DNA of 64,000 nucleotides from an uncultured delta proteobacterium (GTDB lineage: Bacteria > Desulfobacterota > Binatia > Binatales > Binataceae): positions 3,072,001 to 3,136,000 of the forward strand of contig CAWEEQ010000004.1 in NCBI GenBank assembly GCA_963808235.1. Reading direction: 5' to 3'. Below are positions 1 through 4,819 of the stretch, piece by piece. Numbering within the stretch: the stretch's first letter is position 1; each line of letters begins with the position of its first letter. The translations under genes and the position numbers were made by a program. The notes beneath the pieces were generated by a model that was not told the DNA's origin, searched no databases, and saw only the letters and a program-made list of their open reading frames with translations.

Positions 1-1428
1 CACCACTGCGTTCGTCAGCCGGGGCCGGATCGCGAGCACATCGGCGAGCAGCTTCGACTGCCGCGACGGCGCCGCAACCCAGCCAACCGTCTCGACCACA
101 ATCGCGCCGGCAAGAAGCACGTCCAGGGCAATCACCGCAAATCCCGCCCATCCCCTCTGCGGCCCTCGATTCACGCTGACCAGCCCATAGCCCGCCGCGG
201 CAAAAACGATAAACAACGCCGGCATCAGGTAGCGAGGATCCACATAGAAATAAAAGAAGTAAGTAAGTAACAGCGCGGCAAGAAAGCCGAGGCCCAAATA
301 CACCGCACGCATCGTCCTTGCGTTGCGCTTGCCCCGGATCGCGAAGAACACGCCCAGCCCGGCGCAGACCGCGACCGGAAACGGGTAAAAAGCGTAGCGC
401 GCGCGAATTAACGTTCGGAACTCCTCACCCAGAGTAAGCTGACCGAAGACGCCATCGAGACCAAGCATTGCGAGCGTATAAGAGACAAAATTTCCGTGCA
501 GATAGGACGAATCCGGGGGCACGACGAAGTAGCTCAACTTAAAAGACGTAGAGACTGAGCTGTAGAATTCCGGCAACCAGAACACGTAACCGCTTGAGAG
601 GATCGAACCGAGGTAGTGCAGATTTACCCAAGCCTGCAATCCTGGAAATGGAGCGAACCCGATCGCAAACGCCATCACTTGCGCGAACCGTAATCTGCGT
701 GGCCGAACGAGTAGAGCCGCCGCCAGCATTCCGGCCAATATTGCGCCGTTGGTGACGTGGACTATGACGGCCAGGCCCGCCAGCAGTCCGCACAGCGTGG
801 ATGCGACCAGGCTTTCTTTTTCCTCGGCATACAAAAATGCCAGTGCAGCAAGGACTACGACCGCAAGCGAAGGAACGTCACTCATCACGCAGGTGGAAAG
901 TCCGAGAAAATATGGCGACGTAGCCAGCAGTAACCCGGCCAAAATCGCGCTTGGCCGGTCGAACGCCCATAGCGTCAAGAGATAAAGCCCGGCTATCGCG
1001 ACCAATGCCGTCAGTGCTGTAACCAGGCAAAGCCGTTCGGGCCTATGCCCCACAAGTGGATACGCCGCAGCTAGAATGAGCGGATAACCGATCGTATAGC
1101 GAGGCGGATAAGAATTTCCCCCGAAATGGAGCACCGGGCCTAGGCCGCTATCAAGGTCTACCGCAATCGCCGCGTATTCAATCGCGTCGGGCGTCGGGTA
1201 TAGTTCCTGTCCGTTGGCAAATCCCGTGCGCACGATCAGGAGCATCGCAAAACCGAGCAGGAGCGCGAGCAGCGCCGCGTCGATCCCCTTGAAGCGAAAG
1301 ATCGACGCTTCCCCCGCTTCTCTGCCCGGCCGAGCGGGCTCTGATGAATCAGAGTCCGAAGAGTGTCGCGGCCTTTCCCGGCTCGATCCACTTCGGGATC
1401 GCGCCTTGGCGCGTGAACTTCGCGACAT
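1..1428 (-). CDS. Multi-pass membrane GT-C-fold glycosyltransferase (ArnT/PMT-like), 3' end beyond the window
   Basis: Not in the ORF track because it has no stop in the window. Hand translation from ATG 1428 is open to position 1: ...ELYPTPDAIEYAAIA...YPPRYTIGYPLILA...VMSDVPS...YVDPRYLMP, with many TM helices. Confidence 0.75.
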   Translation of the reverse strand, partial: MSRSSRAKARSRSGSSRERPRHSSDSDSSEPARPGREAGEASIFRFKGIDAALLALLLGFAMLLIVRTGFANGQELYPTPDAIEYAAIAVDLDSGLGPVLHFGGNSYPPRYTIGYPLILAAAYPLVGHRPERLCLVTALTALVAIAGLYLLTLWAFDRPSAILAGLLLATSPYFLGLSTCVMSDVPSLAVVVLAALAFLYAEEKESLVASTLCGLLAGLAVIVHVTNGAILAGMLAAALLVRPRRLRFAQVMAFAIGFAPFPGLQAWVNLHYLGSILSSGYVFWLPEFYSSVSTSFKLSYFVVPPDSSYLHGNFVSYTLAMLGLDGVFGQLTLGEEFRTLIRARYAFYPFPVAVCAGLGVFFAIRGKRNARTMRAVYLGLGFLAALLLTYFFYFYVDPRYLMPALFIVFAAAGYGLVSVNRGPQRGWAGFAVIALDVLLAGAIVVETVGWVAAPSRQSKLLADVLAIRPRLTNAVV

Positions 1429-1609
1429 TCAGTGTGCTCCGTCGATCCCCTGCATTACTAACAAAAACAAACGACTCGGTAGTCCAGCTTTTCGGCGAAC
1501 GGTTCCTCTCAATAGACACCGCCACATCGAAAAACAACAACAGCGGCCTGTCCGCGCTGACTCAGAGCAACGACTTCAGCTTCGGTCGCATCTCGACTAG
1601 TTTACGAGA

Positions 1610-2026
1610 ATGCTAAAAGGATCCTGCGCTTGCGGGCGCATACGCTATCAGATCAATGGAGAGCTCCTCGGGCCAATCACCTATTGCCATTGCTGGCGAT
1701 GCCGAAAACACTCCGGGTCAAGCTTCGGGACAACTGCCGGGGTGAACGCCGGCGAATTCTCGTTCGTCTCCGGGAACGAGCTCTTATCGAGTTGGGAATC
1801 CAGCCCGGGTGTTCATAGATTTTTTGCGAGCTGCTGCGGCTCACCCATCTACAAGCGTGATGACGCTGCTCCTCAAGTGCTCGGGTTCCGGCTCGGAACG
1901 CTCGACTCCGACCCTTTGCGGAGCGCCGACGTGCATTTCATGGTCGGCTCGAAAGCGCCATGGGTGAAAATCAGCGACACTCTTCCGCAGGAACCGGGCG
2001 GCGTCCCGTTCGGTGAGCGCGACTAG
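1610..2026 (+). CDS. GFA/CENP-V family Zn-binding protein
   Basis: GSCACG..., CHCWRCRK and CCGSP motifs. Confidence 0.9.
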   Translation: MLKGSCACGRIRYQINGELLGPITYCHCWRCRKHSGSSFGTTAGVNAGEFSFVSGNELLSSWESSPGVHRFFASCCGSPIYKRDDAAPQVLGFRLGTLDSDPLRSADVHFMVGSKAPWVKISDTLPQEPGGVPFGERD

Positions 2027-2029
2027 CGA

Positions 2030-2452
2030 ATGGAAAGTGCAAAACGACAACGCGTCGGCTATGTCGCACTCGTCGTTCGCGACTACGATGAGGCGATCGA
2101 CTACTACACGAATGTGATCGGGTTCGAGGTCGTCGAGGATACCCCGCTCGGCGGCGAAAAGCGGTGGGTGCTCCTCGCGCCGCCCGGCTCCACAGAAACG
2201 CGCCTGCTCCTCGCCAAAGCATCAACGCCGGAGCAGATGTCGCGAATCGGCAATCAGACCGGCGGACGGGTTTTCCTTTTTCTTCACACCGATGATTTCC
2301 GGCGCGATTACCACGCGATGTTCACTCGCGGCGTCAAGTTTTGCGAGGCTCCGCGCGACGAATCGTACGGCACCGTCGCGGTGTTCGAAGATTTCTACGG
2401 CAATCGATGGGATCTGCTGCAGCTGCGACCGTCGTCAAAGGCATCGGTATAG
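2030..2452 (+). CDS. VOC/glyoxalase family protein
   Basis: VVRDYDEAIDYY...GNQTGGRVFLFL...YGTVAVFEDFYGNRWDL. Confidence 0.9.
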   Translation: MESAKRQRVGYVALVVRDYDEAIDYYTNVIGFEVVEDTPLGGEKRWVLLAPPGSTETRLLLAKASTPEQMSRIGNQTGGRVFLFLHTDDFRRDYHAMFTRGVKFCEAPRDESYGTVAVFEDFYGNRWDLLQLRPSSKASV

Positions 2453-2680
2453 CGCATCGATCAGCGCCGCGGCGCGCACATCGACCAGATTGCCTGGGAG
2501 CATCTGATTCATGGCGTATCCGAAGCCAACAGAAGCATCGCTATGATCGCAGGATGGCACACCGGCGCGCCTCGCTTGCCACGGCCATGCTCACACGCGG
2601 ATAATAAGTCGTAAGGGGCACGGTTGGCCCATCCAGAAGCGAGGTAGTGGTCTAAGCAAAAAATCGAAATAAACGAGAGT

Positions 2681-2825
2681 AGCGCCAGAACTCATAATCC
2701 TATGAGTTGACGAGGTGGAAGCAGTATCGAAGATAATCGGCGGATGGCTTCCCGGCTCCACGGTCGATAGAGGCGAACAAACCGCGCGGGTGACCGCGCG
2801 ACAAATTCGAGTCCTCACGTGGCTG
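2681..2825 (+). ncRNA. glmS ribozyme: glmS glucosamine-6-phosphate-activated riboswitch-ribozyme
   Basis: Core AGCGCCAGAACT...AGTTGACGAGG...TATCGAA...TCGGCGGATG...TCCCGG. P1 is AACTCATA/TATGAGTT; a GGAAGC/GCTTCC stem; a CGCGCGG-GTGA-CCGCGCG hairpin; CCACG/CGTGG long-range pairing. About 160 nt upstream of glmS. Confidence 0.93.
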
Positions 2826-2986
2826 AGCATAAGGCTCTGATCAAGGTTTCCCTAAACTCTCCCGCTTTGACCATTTCGTCCACTCTCTGTGGTGGCTCAC
2901 GATCGCTCCCCCGAAGCGAGCACGAATGTTTAACGTTTTCGTGCTCATGCGGACAACTCCGTAACGGTTCGGAATAGGAGTGATTC

Positions 2987-4819
2987 ATGTGCGGAATAAT
3001 CGGATACGTTGGGCCGAGCGAGGCATACCCGATCCTGCTCGACGGACTTGGCCGCCTCGAGTATCGCGGCTACGACTCCGCCGGCGTCGCCACAATTGTC
3101 GATAGCGGCAAGCTCGAAGTTCGCCGAGCCAAGGGTAAGCTGCAGAACCTCCGGCTCCTGCTCGCGGACTCGCCGCTCGAGGGCCATATCGGGATGGGGC
3201 ACACACGATGGGCGACGCACGGCCGTCCCTCGGAGGAGAATGCGCATCCGCATCGCGCCGGCCCGGTCGCGGTCATCCACAATGGAATCGTCGAGAACTT
3301 TATCGAGCTGCGCACCGAGCTGCTCGCGCGCGGCCACAAGCTCCGCTCCGAGACCGACACCGAGTTGATCTCGCATCTGATCGAGGAAAAACTGAAAACG
3401 GGCCGCGGCTTGACCGAGGCAGTCCGCGAAGCGGTGATGCGTATCCGCGGTTCGTTCTCGATCGTGGTGCTGTCCGAGACCGAGCCCGACAAGCTGGTCG
3501 CCGCGAAGACCGCGACACCGCTGGTGCTGGGACTTGGCGAGGGCGAGAATTTTATCGCGTCGGACATTCCTGCGATCCTCCAACACACGCGCCGCGCGAT
3601 GGTTCTTGAAGACGGCGAACTCGCCGAAGTCACTGCGATCGGAATCCGCCTGATGAAATTCGACGGCACCGCGGTGACTCGCATTCCGCGCCAGATCGAA
3701 TGGGACGCAGCCGCGGCGACCAGGGGCGGCTTCCGCCACTACCTGCGCAAGGAAATCAACGATCAGCCGCAGGCGTGGATCGACACGATGGCGGGACGTG
3801 CTGCCGCGGGTTCATCGACAGTCCACTTCGAAAGCGACCTTCTCCCCGCAGGCGGTCCGTCGTCGATCGGGAGAATCGTGATCGTGGGCGCAGGAGCGTC
3901 GTGGATCACCGCGCAGATCGGCAAGTTCATGATCGAGGAGCTGGCCGGGATCCCGGTCGAAGTCGATTACGCATCGGAGTTCCGCTATCGGCGTCCGCCG
4001 ATCGACGAGCGGACGATGATCATCGCGGTGTCGCAGTCGGGTGAGACCGCGGACACGCTCGCCGCAATGGAAGAAGGCGGCGGGCGCGGCGCGCATCTGC
4101 TGGCGATCACAAATACGGTGGACTCATCGATCGCGCGCAAGGCCAACGCGCAGCTTTACACGCGATGCGGTCCCGAGACGAGCGTCACCACCACCAAGTG
4201 CTTTCTGACTCAGCTGGAGTCGTACTATCTGTTCGCGATTCATCTGGCGGCGCGGATGGGTCGTCTGTCAAATTCCGAGGCGGAGAAACTCCTCCAGCCC
4301 GCGTTCGCCATTCCCGCCGAGCTCAAAACGATCTTTGCGAACGAGCCGGCGATCGCGCAGATCGCACGCAAGTACGCTTCGGCGAGCGACTTCCTGTTCC
4401 TCGGGCGCGGAATAAATTATCCGGTCGCGCTCGAAGGAGCGTTGAAGCTGAAAGAAATTTCCTACATCCACGCCGAAGGCTATTCGGCCGGCGAGATGAA
4501 GCACGGGCCGATCGCGCTGATCGACGAGAAGATGCCGGTGGTCGTGATAATTCCCAACGACAACCTGTTCGAGAAATCGATGTCGAATCTAAAAGAAGTC
4601 GAATCGCGCAACGGGCGGATTATTGCTGTGACGAATCACGCGACCGATGAGTTGAAGCGGGTCGCCGCCGATGTGATCGAGGTGCCCGAGACAAACCGGA
4701 TGCTCACGCCGGTGCTGATGACCGTGCCGCTGCAATTGCTCGCGTACCATATCGCGGCCGAGCGTGGCACCGACGTTGATCAGCCGCGCAATCTCGCGAA
4801 GTCGGTCACAGTGGAATAG
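2987..4819 (+). CDS. glmS: Glutamine--fructose-6-phosphate aminotransferase (isomerizing)
   Basis: MCGIIG, LEYRGYDSAG, GHTRWATHG, SQSGETADT, ALKLKEISYIHAEG, PRNLAKSVTVE. Confidence 0.98.
   Translation: MCGIIGYVGPSEAYPILLDGLGRLEYRGYDSAGVATIVDSGKLEVRRAKGKLQNLRLLLADSPLEGHIGMGHTRWATHGRPSEENAHPHRAGPVAVIHNGIVENFIELRTELLARGHKLRSETDTELISHLIEEKLKTGRGLTEAVREAVMRIRGSFSIVVLSETEPDKLVAAKTATPLVLGLGEGENFIASDIPAILQHTRRAMVLEDGELAEVTAIGIRLMKFDGTAVTRIPRQIEWDAAAATRGGFRHYLRKEINDQPQAWIDTMAGRAAAGSSTVHFESDLLPAGGPSSIGRIVIVGAGASWITAQIGKFMIEELAGIPVEVDYASEFRYRRPPIDERTMIIAVSQSGETADTLAAMEEGGGRGAHLLAITNTVDSSIARKANAQLYTRCGPETSVTTTKCFLTQLESYYLFAIHLAARMGRLSNSEAEKLLQPAFAIPAELKTIFANEPAIAQIARKYASASDFLFLGRGINYPVALEGALKLKEISYIHAEGYSAGEMKHGPIALIDEKMPVVVIIPNDNLFEKSMSNLKEVESRNGRIIAVTNHATDELKRVAADVIEVPETNRMLTPVLMTVPLQLLAYHIAAERGTDVDQPRNLAKSVTVE

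What the first reader, a model, noticed from the sequence alone, without database searches (positions are those of the whole stretch)
2681..2825. Complete glmS riboswitch-ribozyme in an apparently diderm, Binatota-like bacterium
Seen: the conserved core (A^GCGCCAGAAC, GUUGACGAGG, UAUCGAA, UCGGCGGAUG, CCCGG), a perfect P1, the GGAAGC/GCUUCC stem, CCACG/CGUGG pairing and a GUGA-capped P4.1, in the glmS leader. Known: this GlcN6P-dependent self-cleaving RNA is mostly described in Firmicutes, where RNase J1 degrades the cleaved mRNA; enterobacteria use GlmY/GlmZ instead. Inference: this genome has outer-membrane-type genes (beta-barrel, MacAB), so the ribozyme may extend the known range and may use a different decay pathway. 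Predicted cleavage is between 2681 and 2682.
Basis: partly seen in the sequence, partly recalled or inferred. Interest (0 to 1): 0.72.

Follow-up and report, generated by a model that had tools for sequence, protein, structure and literature searches.

The report
glmS ribozyme in a Binatus bacterium
This is a genuine, ordinary-cored glucosamine-6-phosphate-sensing self-cleaving RNA in front of the cell-wall gene glmS of an uncultured Gram-negative soil bacterium; it extends the known host range modestly and carries some conserved extra parts whose role is unknown.

Summary
Rfam RF00234 matches window 2670-2824 (+) full length at 83.4 bits (cut-off 37); predicted cleavage is A2681/G2682, and glmS starts at 2987.

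The host is a Candidatus Binatus genome (Binatota) with BamA and LpxC, so an LPS diderm.

The "different decay pathway" idea is not needed. RNase J with its full domain set, RNase Y and RNase E/G are all encoded, and RNase J is near-universal in the class.

Diderm hosts are not new: 19 of 20 named Negativicutes/Bacillota loci and the Deinococcus control carry the ribozyme.

New points:
- The ribozyme occurs in 67 of 150 Binataceae genomes (12 of 30 genera) and in 0 of 133 genomes of the other families.
- GlmS is inherited vertically. The ribozyme and its promoter lie inside the ancestral glmU-glmS spacer.
- Binataceae copies add a covarying hairpin (P5), an invariant AAACUCUCC box, and an invariant leader GAGAGU that pairs with the box.
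- A test of this box as a ribosome-site mask was mostly negative.

The scan had noted glmS ribozymes on other DNA, but none on relatives of this stretch.

The parts
2576..2605 (+). Promoter-like site: -35 TTGCCA (2576-2581), 18-nt spacer, -10 GATAAT (2600-2605). The inferred transcript start is near 2612, about 70 nt before the cleavage site.
   Evidence: Consensus scan finds 1 site against 0.5 expected. The same CTTGAAC-17-AATAAT pattern lines up across the family in the alignment of upstream regions. No 5' end was mapped.
2675..2680 (+). Leader strand of helix P0: GAGAGU at -7 to -2, directly 5' of the scissile bond.
   Evidence: Near-invariant in 48 of 48 aligned Binataceae copies and in 17 further loci. 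The two copies that changed here are both compensated in the box.
2681..2682 (+). Predicted self-cleavage site, A2681^G2682.
   Evidence: Alignment to the RF00234 consensus A^GCGCC. Cleavage itself was not tested.
2670..2824 (+). glmS ribozyme core (Rfam RF00234). P1: 2689-2696 with 2701-2708. P2: 2717-2722 with 2747-2752. Inner helix UCGA/UCGG: 2727-2730 with 2737-2740. P3: 2753-2757 with 2762-2766. P3.1 pseudoknot: CCAC 2758-2761 with GUGG 2819-2822. P4: 2770-2777 with 2806-2816, with an AGU bulge. P4.1: 2783-2789 with 2794-2800, loop GUGA.
   Evidence: 83.4 bits, full model. Pair counts and covariation come from 40 relatives. Helix names are recalled from the ribozyme literature.
2823..2839 (+). 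Extra hairpin 'P5' just 3' of the Rfam model: C.GAGC, loop AUAAG, GCUC.G.
   Evidence: Present in all 48 aligned copies. Four of 6 pairs show compensatory changes and 89.6% of cells are paired, even with some MAFFT misalignment.
2854..2862 (+). Conserved box AAACUCUCC. Its ACUCUC (2856-2861) is the 3' strand of P0 and pairs with 2675-2680.
   Evidence: The 6-bp core is paired in 48 of 48 sequences. The three copies with a changed box keep the pairing: GC to AU twice and GU once. Seventeen more loci are identical.
2863..2975 (+). Variable structured spacer. It includes a 9-bp hairpin (2918-2926 with 2938-2946) and a stretch at 2901-2909 predicted to pair with the ribosome-binding site.
   Evidence: RNAfold of the spacer. 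Length and sequence vary among relatives; the distance from the cleavage site to the ATG is 269-431 nt within the genus.
2976..2980 (+). Shine-Dalgarno AGGAG, 6 nt before the start codon.
   Evidence: Read from the sequence. Its predicted unpaired probability is 0.0 in the folded spacer.
2987..4819 (+). glmS (glutamine--fructose-6-phosphate aminotransferase), 610 aa. It is the only copy in the genome.
   Evidence: ORF. Pfam: GATase_6, GATase_7 and two SIS domains. One match at E<=1e-100 in the genome.

Best explanation
Window 2670-2824 is a working glmS ribozyme-riboswitch in the 5' untranslated leader of the single glmS gene of a Candidatus Binatus (Binatota) bacterium. Transcription most likely starts about 70 nt upstream, from a promoter at 2576-2605. 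When glucosamine-6-phosphate accumulates, it binds the preformed core and acts as cofactor for cleavage between A2681 and G2682. The downstream fragment, which carries glmS, is left with a 5'-hydroxyl and is then degraded, most likely by the genome's own RNase J as in Bacillus. GlmS synthesis falls as a result, giving negative feedback. The promoter and ribozyme lie inside what is the short glmU-glmS spacer in other members of the class. Cleavage would therefore also uncouple glmS from any glmU read-through transcript. The glmS gene itself is inherited vertically. The roughly 0.5-kb leader module was gained in a subgroup of the family Binataceae and lost again in a few lines, or it was exchanged by recombination between the conserved flanking genes. 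Binataceae copies carry three extra conserved elements outside the Rfam model: a hairpin (P5), an invariant AAACUCUCC box, and an invariant GAGAGU leader that pairs with the box (P0). I read these as a clamp that closes the ribozyme domain within a long, G+C-rich leader. Shown here: family membership, structure conservation, context, distribution, presence of the RNases, synteny, and the existence of P5 and P0. Inferred: ligand dependence, the cleavage itself, the decay route, the transcript start, and the role of P0, P5 and the box.
For: - Family membership: RF00234 at 83.4 bits against a cut-off of 37, full length, and the only copy in the genome.
- Core and structure: the core is invariant and 17 of 42 pairs are compensated across 40 relatives. 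Of all cells, 98.1% are paired, 0 of 500 shuffles reach that, and slid controls give 31-41%.
- Position: in all 39 published Binataceae loci parsed, the ribozyme lies 269-431 nt upstream of the glmS start. Three further loci were not parsed by my pattern.
- Gene: glmS is single-copy and carries the expected domains.
- RNases: RNase J scores 457 bits (cut-off 400) with its full domain set. RNase Y scores 700 bits and RNase E/G 500 bits. RNase J is over the cut-off in 138 of 151 genomes of the class.
- Promoter: the pattern is conserved across the family.
- Distribution: 67 of 150 Binataceae genomes and 12 of 30 genera, consistent within genera. None in 133 genomes of the 18 other families of the class.
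- GlmS tree: Binataceae form one clade (support 100) inside Binatia. They lie far from the ribozyme-bearing Bacillota and from the two other ribozyme-bearing outgroup rows (records titled Ca. Aquicultor and Anaerolineae). Twenty of the 21 ribozyme-bearing Binataceae rows fall in one clade of 24 rows (support 95).
- Synteny: glmU lies directly upstream of glmS in 25 of 26 ribozyme-less Binataceae loci. It lies on the same strand, 118-1119 nt upstream of the ribozyme, in 29 of 39 ribozyme-bearing loci.
- P0 and P5.
- RNA libraries: contigs from 4 soil metatranscriptome runs, each of a different study, hold ribozymes 85-95% like this one, covering 2672-2877.
Against: - No cleavage, ligand or decay experiment exists for any Binatota ribozyme.
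- This copy scores in the lower part of its genus range. Genus scores ran from 76 to 98 bits (the top one from unpublished genome G018), and this copy scores 83. Its P1 is short (8 bp), and its P4 needs a 3-nt bulge, which cmscan marked as non-canonical pairs.
- The RNA-library contigs are from relatives (none is 99% or more alike). They may include DNA carry-over and cannot show RNA ends. Several bridge the cleavage site, so they show no cleavage.
- RNase J presence does not show that it acts here. RNase J is equally present in the ribozyme-less families, so there is no co-occurrence signal.
- Gain versus loss is not settled. Four ribozyme-less rows sit inside the ribozyme clade and one ribozyme-bearing row sits outside it. 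The tree came from the quick method and is a gene tree, not a species tree.
- P0 rests on near-invariant columns with only three informative substitutions.
Confidence: 0.8

Rival explanations
1. One reading: the ribozyme is functional, but the cleaved glmS mRNA is removed by a route other than RNase J, for example RNase E/G or RNase Y, because the host is a Gram-negative type of cell.
For: RNase E/G (500 bits) and RNase Y (700 bits) are both encoded. RNase J occurs across the class whether or not a ribozyme is present, so nothing ties it specifically to the ribozyme.
Against: A complete RNase J is present, so the canonical route is available. Recognition of the 5'-OH product by RNase J1 is the only route shown for this ribozyme class; this is Collins et al. 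2007 as I recall it, cited in the passages read. No feature of the sequence calls for another route.
Confidence: 0.12
2. A cleavage-released switch. Before cleavage, the leader GAGAGU holds the CU-rich box (P0). After cleavage, the short 5' fragment falls away. The freed AAACUCUCC box then pairs with the GGAG ribosome-binding site, or recruits a factor, so translation is blocked in addition to decay.
For: Both P0 strands are almost invariant, while neighbouring helices (P1, P4, P5) drift freely with compensation. That fits strands that each have two partners. The box is complementary to GGAG(AG). Box-SD pairing dominates the predicted ensemble in 6 of 44 spacers. Ribosome-site regions of ribozyme-bearing glmS genes match the box slightly better than those of ribozyme-less relatives: mean longest complement 5.6 (n=20) against 4.6 (n=26). 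A second, unrelated class also has a purine-rich leader (AAUAGGGGAU) and a pyrimidine box (AUCCCCUAUU).
Against: In 38 of 44 spacers, including the window's (probability 0.0), the predicted ensemble does not pair the box with the ribosome site. Blocking the box hardly changes the site's accessibility: median unpaired probability 0.09 against 0.12. In most of the genus the complement is only 4-5 bp. The comparison is not phylogenetically independent. Folding predictions on leaders of 150-480 nt are weak evidence either way.
Confidence: 0.1
3. The element is a decaying relic, or an assembly or binning artefact such as a Bacillota contig inside the genome bin, with no role in this organism.
For: Within the class, the ribozyme is confined to part of one family. 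Four ribozyme-less rows sit inside the ribozyme clade. One genome holds a degenerate second copy at 52 bits (L210).
Against: The window lies on a contig of over 3 Mb (its place in the contig). The downstream GlmS groups with Binataceae, not Bacillota. The core is invariant and the helices are compensated in 40 relatives. The element is present in 31 of 32 genomes of the genus, and the one miss has its glmS cut off by a contig end. A lax Rfam search finds no remnants in ribozyme-less relatives, so copies are either intact or absent.
Confidence: 0.02

Closest known systems
Canonical glmS ribozyme-riboswitch of Bacillota (Bacillus subtilis, B. anthracis, Thermoanaerobacter tengcongensis; Rfam RF00234)
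   Same: The match is full-length with the same conserved core and the same A^G cleavage context. The helices are the same, including the CCAC/GUGG pseudoknot and the GNRA-capped P4.1. It sits in the glmS 5' leader, and an RNase J gene is present.
   Different: The host is a Binatota LPS diderm. The leader is long: 306 nt from the cleavage site to the ATG, against spacers of mostly 16-108 nt after the ribozyme in 19 named Bacillota loci. It has the extra P5 hairpin, the invariant AAACUCUCC box and the P0 leader pairing. None of these were seen in those 19 loci or in the 7 Bacillota-titled loci among the 8 listed.
Structural variants of glmS ribozymes in Deinococcus-Thermus (McCown, Roth and Breaker 2011, RNA 17:728; the paper is not held, so this is recalled from its abstract)
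   Same: These are non-Bacillota hosts with an outer membrane, and the canonical core carries lineage-specific additions. The Deinococcus radiodurans control genome rings for RF00234.
   Different: As I recall it, those variants carry extra stems inside the catalytic core. Here the core is standard and the additions lie outside it, 5' and 3' of the model. I could not check whether that paper or its supplement describes a leader-to-downstream pairing.
glmS ribozymes of one class that holds both the Candidatus Aquicultor record (Actinomycetota by its title) and a record titled Anaerolineae (loci L177-L190)
   Same: The layout is the same: ribozyme, then a hairpin, then a pyrimidine box (AAUCCCCUAUU, once CUAAAUUCCCCUG). 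A purine-rich leader (AAUAGGGGAU) complementary to the box over 7-10 bp is seen in 10 of the 12 leaders that could be read.
   Different: The helix sequence differs (AGGGGAU/AUCCCCU against GAGAGU/ACUCUC). The leader strand lies 5-12 nt from the cleavage site rather than abutting it. Whether the two are homologous or convergent is open. blastn finds no similarity to the window's ribozyme beyond the core.
Enterobacterial glmUS operon control by RNase E processing and the small RNAs GlmZ/GlmY with RapZ (recalled knowledge)
   Same: The regulatory RNA event happens in the glmU-glmS intergenic region, and it uncouples glmS expression from glmU in response to GlcN6P.
   Different: The mechanism is wholly different: trans-acting small RNAs and an adaptor protein against a cis-acting self-cleaving RNA. 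I did not search this genome for GlmZ, GlmY or RapZ.

Membership tests
glmS ribozyme (Rfam RF00234) | Covariance-model score at or above the curated gathering score, over the full model | tested here: met
   83.4 bits against 37, model positions 1-167 of 167, E 1.1e-17.
glmS ribozyme (Rfam RF00234) | Conserved catalytic-core sequence and an A^G cleavage context (A^GCGCC, GACGAGG, AUCGA, UCGGCGGAUG) | tested here: met
   All are present at 2681-2746. These columns are invariant in 40 relatives.
glmS ribozyme (Rfam RF00234) | Helices P1, P2, P3, P4 and P4.1 maintained by compensatory change | tested here: met
   Seventeen of 42 pairs carry double changes and 98.1% of cells are paired. None of 500 shuffles reach this, and slid controls give 31-41%. 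RNAalifold recovers the same nested helices on its own, except the inner UCGA/UCGG helix, for which it proposes another pairing.
glmS ribozyme (Rfam RF00234) | P3.1 pseudoknot between the P3 loop and the 3' tail | tested here: inconclusive
   CCAC (2758-2761) and GUGG (2819-2822) are complementary, and 99.4% of cells are paired. However, 3 of the 4 pairs never vary, so there is no covariation. RNAalifold proposes an alternative pairing for the same 3' tail.
glmS ribozyme (Rfam RF00234) | Location in the 5' untranslated region of glmS | tested here: met
   The ribozyme ends 162 nt before the glmS start codon at 2987. The arrangement is the same in the 39 published relatives parsed.
glmS ribozyme (Rfam RF00234) | GlcN6P-dependent self-cleavage giving 2',3'-cyclic phosphate and 5'-OH ends | not testable with these tools
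   This needs an in-vitro cleavage assay. The RNA-library contigs cannot show ends.
glmS ribozyme (Rfam RF00234) | Down-regulation through decay of the 5'-OH product by RNase J (as shown in Bacillus subtilis; recalled) | tested here: inconclusive
   The enzyme is encoded: TIGR00649 at 457 bits against 400, with MBL, beta-CASP, RMMBL and RNase_J_C domains. Its action on this mRNA is untested.

The most novel reading that the evidence does not exclude
Binataceae glmS ribozymes, and in parallel those of an Aquicultor-like class, form an extended subtype. A near-invariant purine leader next to the scissile bond pairs with a near-invariant pyrimidine box downstream of the ribozyme. In this reading, strand scission does more than expose a 5'-OH. 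It frees the box, which then acts as a second regulatory element by masking the ribosome-binding site or binding a factor. The whole promoter, ribozyme and box module would have spread as a leader-only cassette into resident glmU-glmS operons, by recombination between the conserved flanking genes.
Probability: 0.12. Interest if true: 0.7.

Novelty: new member of a known kind. Interest (0 to 1): 0.4.

Why it matters
The ribozyme itself is textbook, so most of the value is correction. The host range reaches a further, LPS-bearing, uncultured soil phylum. This does not call for a new decay pathway, because RNase J is there.

Three things would interest specialists:
- A clean natural case in which a riboswitch leader, not the gene it controls, was gained or lost. 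It sits inside a conserved glmU-glmS operon and is confined to part of one family. That bears on how riboswitches spread.
- A conserved extension (P5 hairpin, invariant box, leader-box helix) that the Rfam model does not cover. It could be added to the family description and tested for a role in folding or expression.
- For annotators of Binatia genomes, a ready marker of how glmS is controlled in about half of the Binataceae.

Tried and rejected
- Anti-SD release model. I folded 44 spacers with the box free or blocked. Box-SD pairing reached P>0.5 in only 6 of 44, and in the window it was 0.0. I do not adopt this as the main reading.
- Generic duplex-energy and longest-stem tests of leader against downstream sequence. 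They had no power for a 6-bp helix. For the window, the best stem found was a different, G-U-rich one, with a shuffle fraction of 0.37.
- Search for a donor lineage. blastn of the window's ribozyme, P5 and box against 113 non-Binataceae loci gave only core-level hits of 44 bits or less. No donor was identified.
- Remnants in ribozyme-less relatives. A lax Rfam search (E<=1) on 7 glmS loci found no RF00234 match. The one hit, RF02820 at 31.8 bits, is below its cut-off and I take it as chance.
- Upstream gene synteny with the window's own neighbours (PMT_2, GFA, glyoxalase). It is not conserved even within the genus. The conserved neighbour is glmU.
- RNA evidence. The index found only small shares (0.05-0.06 of the words) in 6 RNA runs. 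The 4 I laid are contigs of relatives at 85-95% likeness. They show no ends, no cleavage and not this organism.
- Papers. McCown et al. 2011 (PMC3062183) and McCown, Winkler and Breaker 2012 (PMC5315370) are not held. Their phylum lists and any description of leader pairing remain unseen, as does Rfam's species list.
- Anaerolineae. In 30 loci, purine-rich leaders (GGGGAAGAYA^G) are common, but I could not define a matching box by eye.
- One search repeated, because the two centre genomes proved to belong to one class.
- The phylum level of this genome's own lineage was not searched. The class draw of 151 was the widest.
Full report
THE OBSERVATION

The window was read at 2400-3100 and scanned whole against Rfam 15. 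One family reaches its gathering score in the 64 kb. This is RF00234 glmS at 2670-2824 (+), with 83.4 bits against a cut-off of 37, E 1.1e-17, and all 167 model positions matched.

The 610-aa ORF at 2987-4819 has the glutamine amidotransferase domain and two SIS domains of GlmS. It is the only glmS-like gene in the genome at E<=1e-100. The ribozyme is likewise the only RF00234 hit in the 4.59-Mb, 4-contig genome, which is 93% complete.

IS IT MORE THAN CHANCE, AND IS IT MAINTAINED?

I aligned 40 ribozymes from the same family of bacteria (alignment A1). These were 40 of the 43 loci then held; the three from unpublished genomes were left out. The core is invariant. On the helices P1, P2, the inner UCGA/UCGG helix, P3, the P3.1 pseudoknot, P4 and P4.1, the counts are as follows:
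- 98.1% of 1668 cells form standard pairs.
- 17 of 42 pairs show compensatory double changes.
- None of 500 shuffles reach the observed values.
- Sliding the 3' partners by 1-3 columns drops pairing to 31-41%.

RNAalifold finds the same nested helices on its own, apart from the inner UCGA/UCGG helix, where it pairs UAUC with GAUG instead. P3.1 (CCAC with GUGG) is complementary but almost invariant, so covariation neither supports nor contradicts it.

The window's own copy has a short P1 (8 bp, loop AUCC) and a P4 that needs a 3-nt bulge. Its score is in the lower part of the genus range, which ran from 76 to 98 bits; the top score is from the unpublished genome G018.

WHOSE GENOME?

The closest GlmS loci in named public records are 86-89% identical. 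They are titled Candidatus Binatus sp., Candidatus Binataceae bacterium, or "uncultured delta proteobacterium" MAGs. NCBI places Binatus in Candidatus Binatota, Binatia, Binatales, Binataceae.

The genome encodes BamA (597 bits, cut-off 297) and LpxC (234 bits, cut-off 187).

THE DECAY-PATHWAY INFERENCE

The genome encodes the following RNases:
- RNase J: TIGR00649 at 457 bits against 400, with metallo-beta-lactamase, beta-CASP, RMMBL and RNase_J_C domains.
- RNase Y: 700 bits.
- RNase E/G: 500 bits.

RNase J is over its cut-off in 138 of 151 genomes drawn from the class, including families with no ribozyme. The canonical route is therefore available, and it predates the ribozyme in this lineage. 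As I recall it from Collins et al. 2007, that route is RNase J acting on the 5'-OH product; the paper is cited in the passages read. Nothing requires a different pathway, but its use here is still an inference.

IS A DIDERM HOST NEW?

No. [quoted passage not shown] In my own data:
- The Deinococcus radiodurans control genome rings for RF00234.
- Nineteen of 20 named loci have a full ribozyme. Most are Negativicutes, which are LPS-diderm Bacillota: Sporomusa, Selenomonas, Phascolarctobacterium, Pelosinus and Mitsuokella. One is an Alicyclobacillaceae record. Only L093 has none.

For Binatota I found nothing in print. Zero papers hold 'Binatota' with 'riboswitch', and zero hold 'Binatia' with 'glmS'. 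The two papers that list the phyla (McCown et al. 2011 and 2012) are not held. Rfam's species list is not visible here, so "first record" cannot be claimed firmly.

DISTRIBUTION

- Relatives draw: 22 of 24 genomes of the genus have the ribozyme, and 0 of 16 genomes from ten other families.
- Class draw: 9 of 151 including this genome. All nine are in the family Binataceae (8 of 17 without this genome). None occur in 133 genomes of the 18 other families.
- Family draw: 67 of 150 genomes and 12 of 30 genera. The pattern is nearly all-or-none per genus. Ribozyme-bearing genera: g1 31/32, g20 11/11, g94 9/10, g88 5/6, g84 3/3. Genera without it: g24 0/17, g18 0/13, g80 0/7, g21 0/7.

The single miss in the genus (G019) has its glmS cut off by a contig start. 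These counts include the unpublished genomes G018, G023 and G205.

Outside the class, 20 named GlmS loci were scanned. The ribozyme was found in four:
- One further Binataceae-like MAG.
- Two loci titled Anaerolineae.
- The Candidatus Aquicultor locus.

It was absent from the Binatia, Bdellovibrionota, Myxococcota, Thermodesulfobacteriota, Terriglobia, Gemmatimonadota, Armatimonadota, Aquificota, Limnocylindria and Woesearchaeota records, and from the three records titled only as Deltaproteobacteria or bacterium.

GENE VERTICAL, LEADER MOBILE

I built a GlmS tree of 68 rows (IQ-TREE, quick method). All 47 Binataceae rows form one clade (support 100), nested in Binatia (99). They are separate from the ribozyme-bearing Bacillota rows and from the two other ribozyme-bearing outgroup rows, titled Ca. 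Aquicultor and Anaerolineae. The glmS gene therefore did not arrive with the ribozyme from those phyla.

Inside Binataceae:
- Twenty of the 21 ribozyme-bearing rows fall in one clade of 24 (support 95).
- Four ribozyme-less rows sit inside that clade (two of g81, one of g85, one of g89).
- One ribozyme-bearing row (g79) sits just outside it.
- The basal lines (g95, g23, g78, g80, g74) lack the ribozyme.

Synteny explains the pattern. In 25 of 26 ribozyme-less Binataceae loci, glmU lies directly upstream of glmS. The gaps are about 50-155 nt in 19 of the 20 such loci fetched with 700-nt flanks. Four of the five loci from other families tested also have glmU upstream.

In 29 of 39 ribozyme-bearing loci, the 3' end of glmU lies on the same strand, 118-1119 nt upstream of the ribozyme. 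In nine of these the gap is only 118-144 nt, just enough for the promoter and leader. In this genome, glmU (486 bits) lies 5.5 kb upstream on the same strand. A glycosyltransferase, a GFA-family gene and a glyoxalase-family gene sit in between.

So the promoter and ribozyme leader is a module of roughly 0.5 kb sitting inside an ancestral glmU-glmS spacer. It was either gained within Binataceae and lost a few times, or passed among relatives by recombination between the two conserved genes. A lax Rfam search finds no remnants in ribozyme-less relatives. I could not identify a donor. Gain versus ancient retention is not proven. Retention would need losses in every other family sampled.

PROMOTER AND RNA

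A promoter-like site lies at TTGCCA (2576-2581), 18 nt, GATAAT (2600-2605). It lines up with a CTTGAAC-17-AATAAT pattern conserved across the family. This places the transcript start about 70 nt before the cleavage site.

Contigs from four soil metatranscriptome runs, each of a different study, hold ribozymes 85-95% like this one. They cover 2672-2877, some with 14-65 nt further upstream. They are from relatives, may include DNA, and cannot show RNA ends. They are compatible with expression but show no more than that.

EXTRA CONSERVED PARTS

Beyond the 3' end of the Rfam model, every Binataceae copy has a hairpin (here 2823-2839), which I call P5. Four of its 6 pairs carry compensatory changes. 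About 15-25 nt further on lies an invariant box, AAACUCUCC (here 2854-2862).

On the 5' side, the six bases just before A-1 are an invariant GAGAGU (2675-2680). The Rfam consensus is not conserved at that place.

GAGAGU and the ACUCUC of the box are perfectly complementary. I call this helix P0.
- The 6 pairs are formed in 48 of 48 aligned sequences (alignment A2).
- Seventeen further loci have the same two strands.
- Only three copies changed, and all three keep the pairing: AAGAGU/ACUCUU, GAAAGU/ACUUUC, and GAGAGU/ACUUUC (a G-U pair).
- A seventh pair exists in 7 of 48 copies (G-C or A-U).

Three informative events are few, so P0 is well supported but not proven.

A separate class holds both the Candidatus Aquicultor record and a record titled Anaerolineae; 13 of its 48 genomes carry the ribozyme. 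It shows the same layout with different letters. The leader is AAUAGGGGAU, followed by a hairpin and then an AUCCCCUAUU box. The two are complementary over 7-10 bp in 10 of the 12 leaders that could be read.

Nineteen named Bacillota loci have A/U-rich leaders, short spacers (16-231 nt, mostly about 30) and no such elements. In 30 Anaerolineae loci the leaders are purine-rich, but I could not define a matching box.

WHAT THE EXTRA PARTS MIGHT DO

The attractive idea is that cleavage releases the CU-rich box to mask the GGAG ribosome site. I tested it by folding 44 spacers with the box free or blocked. Box-site pairing dominates in only 6 of 44, and in the window it is 0.0. The ribosome site is predicted to be held by other local partners regardless: the median unpaired probability is 0.09 with the box free against 0.12 with it blocked.

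Ribosome-site regions of ribozyme-bearing genes match the box only slightly better than those of ribozyme-less relatives (5.6 against 4.6).

I therefore prefer the plainer reading, that P0 and P5 close and insulate the ribozyme domain within a long, G+C-rich leader. I keep the switch as a minority rival. The near-invariance of both P0 strands, next to freely drifting helices, remains unexplained by a pure clamp.

COMPARISON AND VERDICT

This is a member of the glmS ribozyme family by every feature that can be tested in silico. It works, as far as can be inferred, like the Bacillus prototype. It differs in four ways:
- Its host phylum.
- Its position inside a glmU-glmS operon.
- Its long leader.
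- The extension formed by P0, P5 and the box.

The taxonomic guess and the "diderm" call are right. The novelty of a diderm host and the need for another decay pathway are not supported.

The scan had already noted glmS ribozymes on other DNA (38 notes), including lineage-specific structural variants. It had noted none on relatives of this stretch. I rate it a new member of a known kind, of moderate interest.

Noticed in passing
L177-L190 (class holding G291/L044 and G292/L084): Thirteen of 48 genomes of this class carry glmS ribozymes. Ten of the 12 leaders that could be read have AAUAGGGGAU 5-12 nt before the cleavage site, and a complementary AUCCCCUAUU box after a downstream hairpin. This is the same layout as in Binataceae, with different sequence.
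   Followed up: partly
L044/L177 (G291) and L084/L178 (G292): The record titled 'Anaerolineae bacterium' (L044) falls in the same class of the genome collection as Candidatus Aquicultor secundus; the two class searches returned identical genome sets. The NCBI title of L044 is probably a mislabel.
   Followed up: no
L179, L211-L239 (class of G293, Anaerolineae): In this class, 71 of 121 genomes match RF00234, but only 42 are over the cut-off. The matches are 165-312 nt long, so they are expanded variants. Most have a purine-rich leader, GGGGAAGAYA, directly before the cleavage site.
   Followed up: partly
L210 (G255:C14:277-934): One Binataceae genome has a second, degenerate ribozyme copy at 52 bits. 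It has AGGGCC instead of AGCGCC, leader GAGACU and an altered P4.1, with the box retained but no glmS start within 450 nt, on a 5-kb contig. It may be a relic, a strain variant or a contaminant.
   Followed up: no
window 2645-2668 and the family alignment: A conserved block, GAGGUGAYGGUCGARGCGAUAGAA, lies near the inferred 5' end of the transcript; here it reads GAGGTAGTGGTCTAAGCAAAAAAT. Its start is a perfect Shine-Dalgarno-like heptamer with no start codon behind it. In much of the genus the block also contains GAGGCG, a copy of the P4 5' strand. Its role is unknown.
   Followed up: no
window 1-2452 and G000:C4:3067818-3069185 (just upstream of the window): In this genome, glmU and the ribozyme-glmS unit are separated by 5.5 kb. 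This stretch carries a PMT_2 glycosyltransferase (minus strand), a GFA-family gene (1610-2026) and a glyoxalase-family gene (2030-2452). In nine relatives the gap is only 118-144 nt.
   Followed up: partly
window 2901-2909 with 2977-2985; 2918-2946: The spacer is predicted to sequester the glmS ribosome-binding site in a 9-bp helix (GAUCGCUCC with GGAGUGAUU) that encloses a 9-bp hairpin. Analogous local helices that pair the region around the start codon are predicted in most relatives, with different sequences.
   Followed up: partly
G181:C18:95944-97785: One Binataceae genome has a glmS-like frame only 56% identical to the window's GlmS, with 6 TGA and 1 TAA stops inside. It may be a pseudogene, a contaminant, or DNA read with another genetic code.
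   Followed up: no
L208 and L209 (G267): The two 52-bit ribozyme hits in this genome are the two halves of a single ribozyme, split over overlapping contig ends. They are not two copies.
   Followed up: yes
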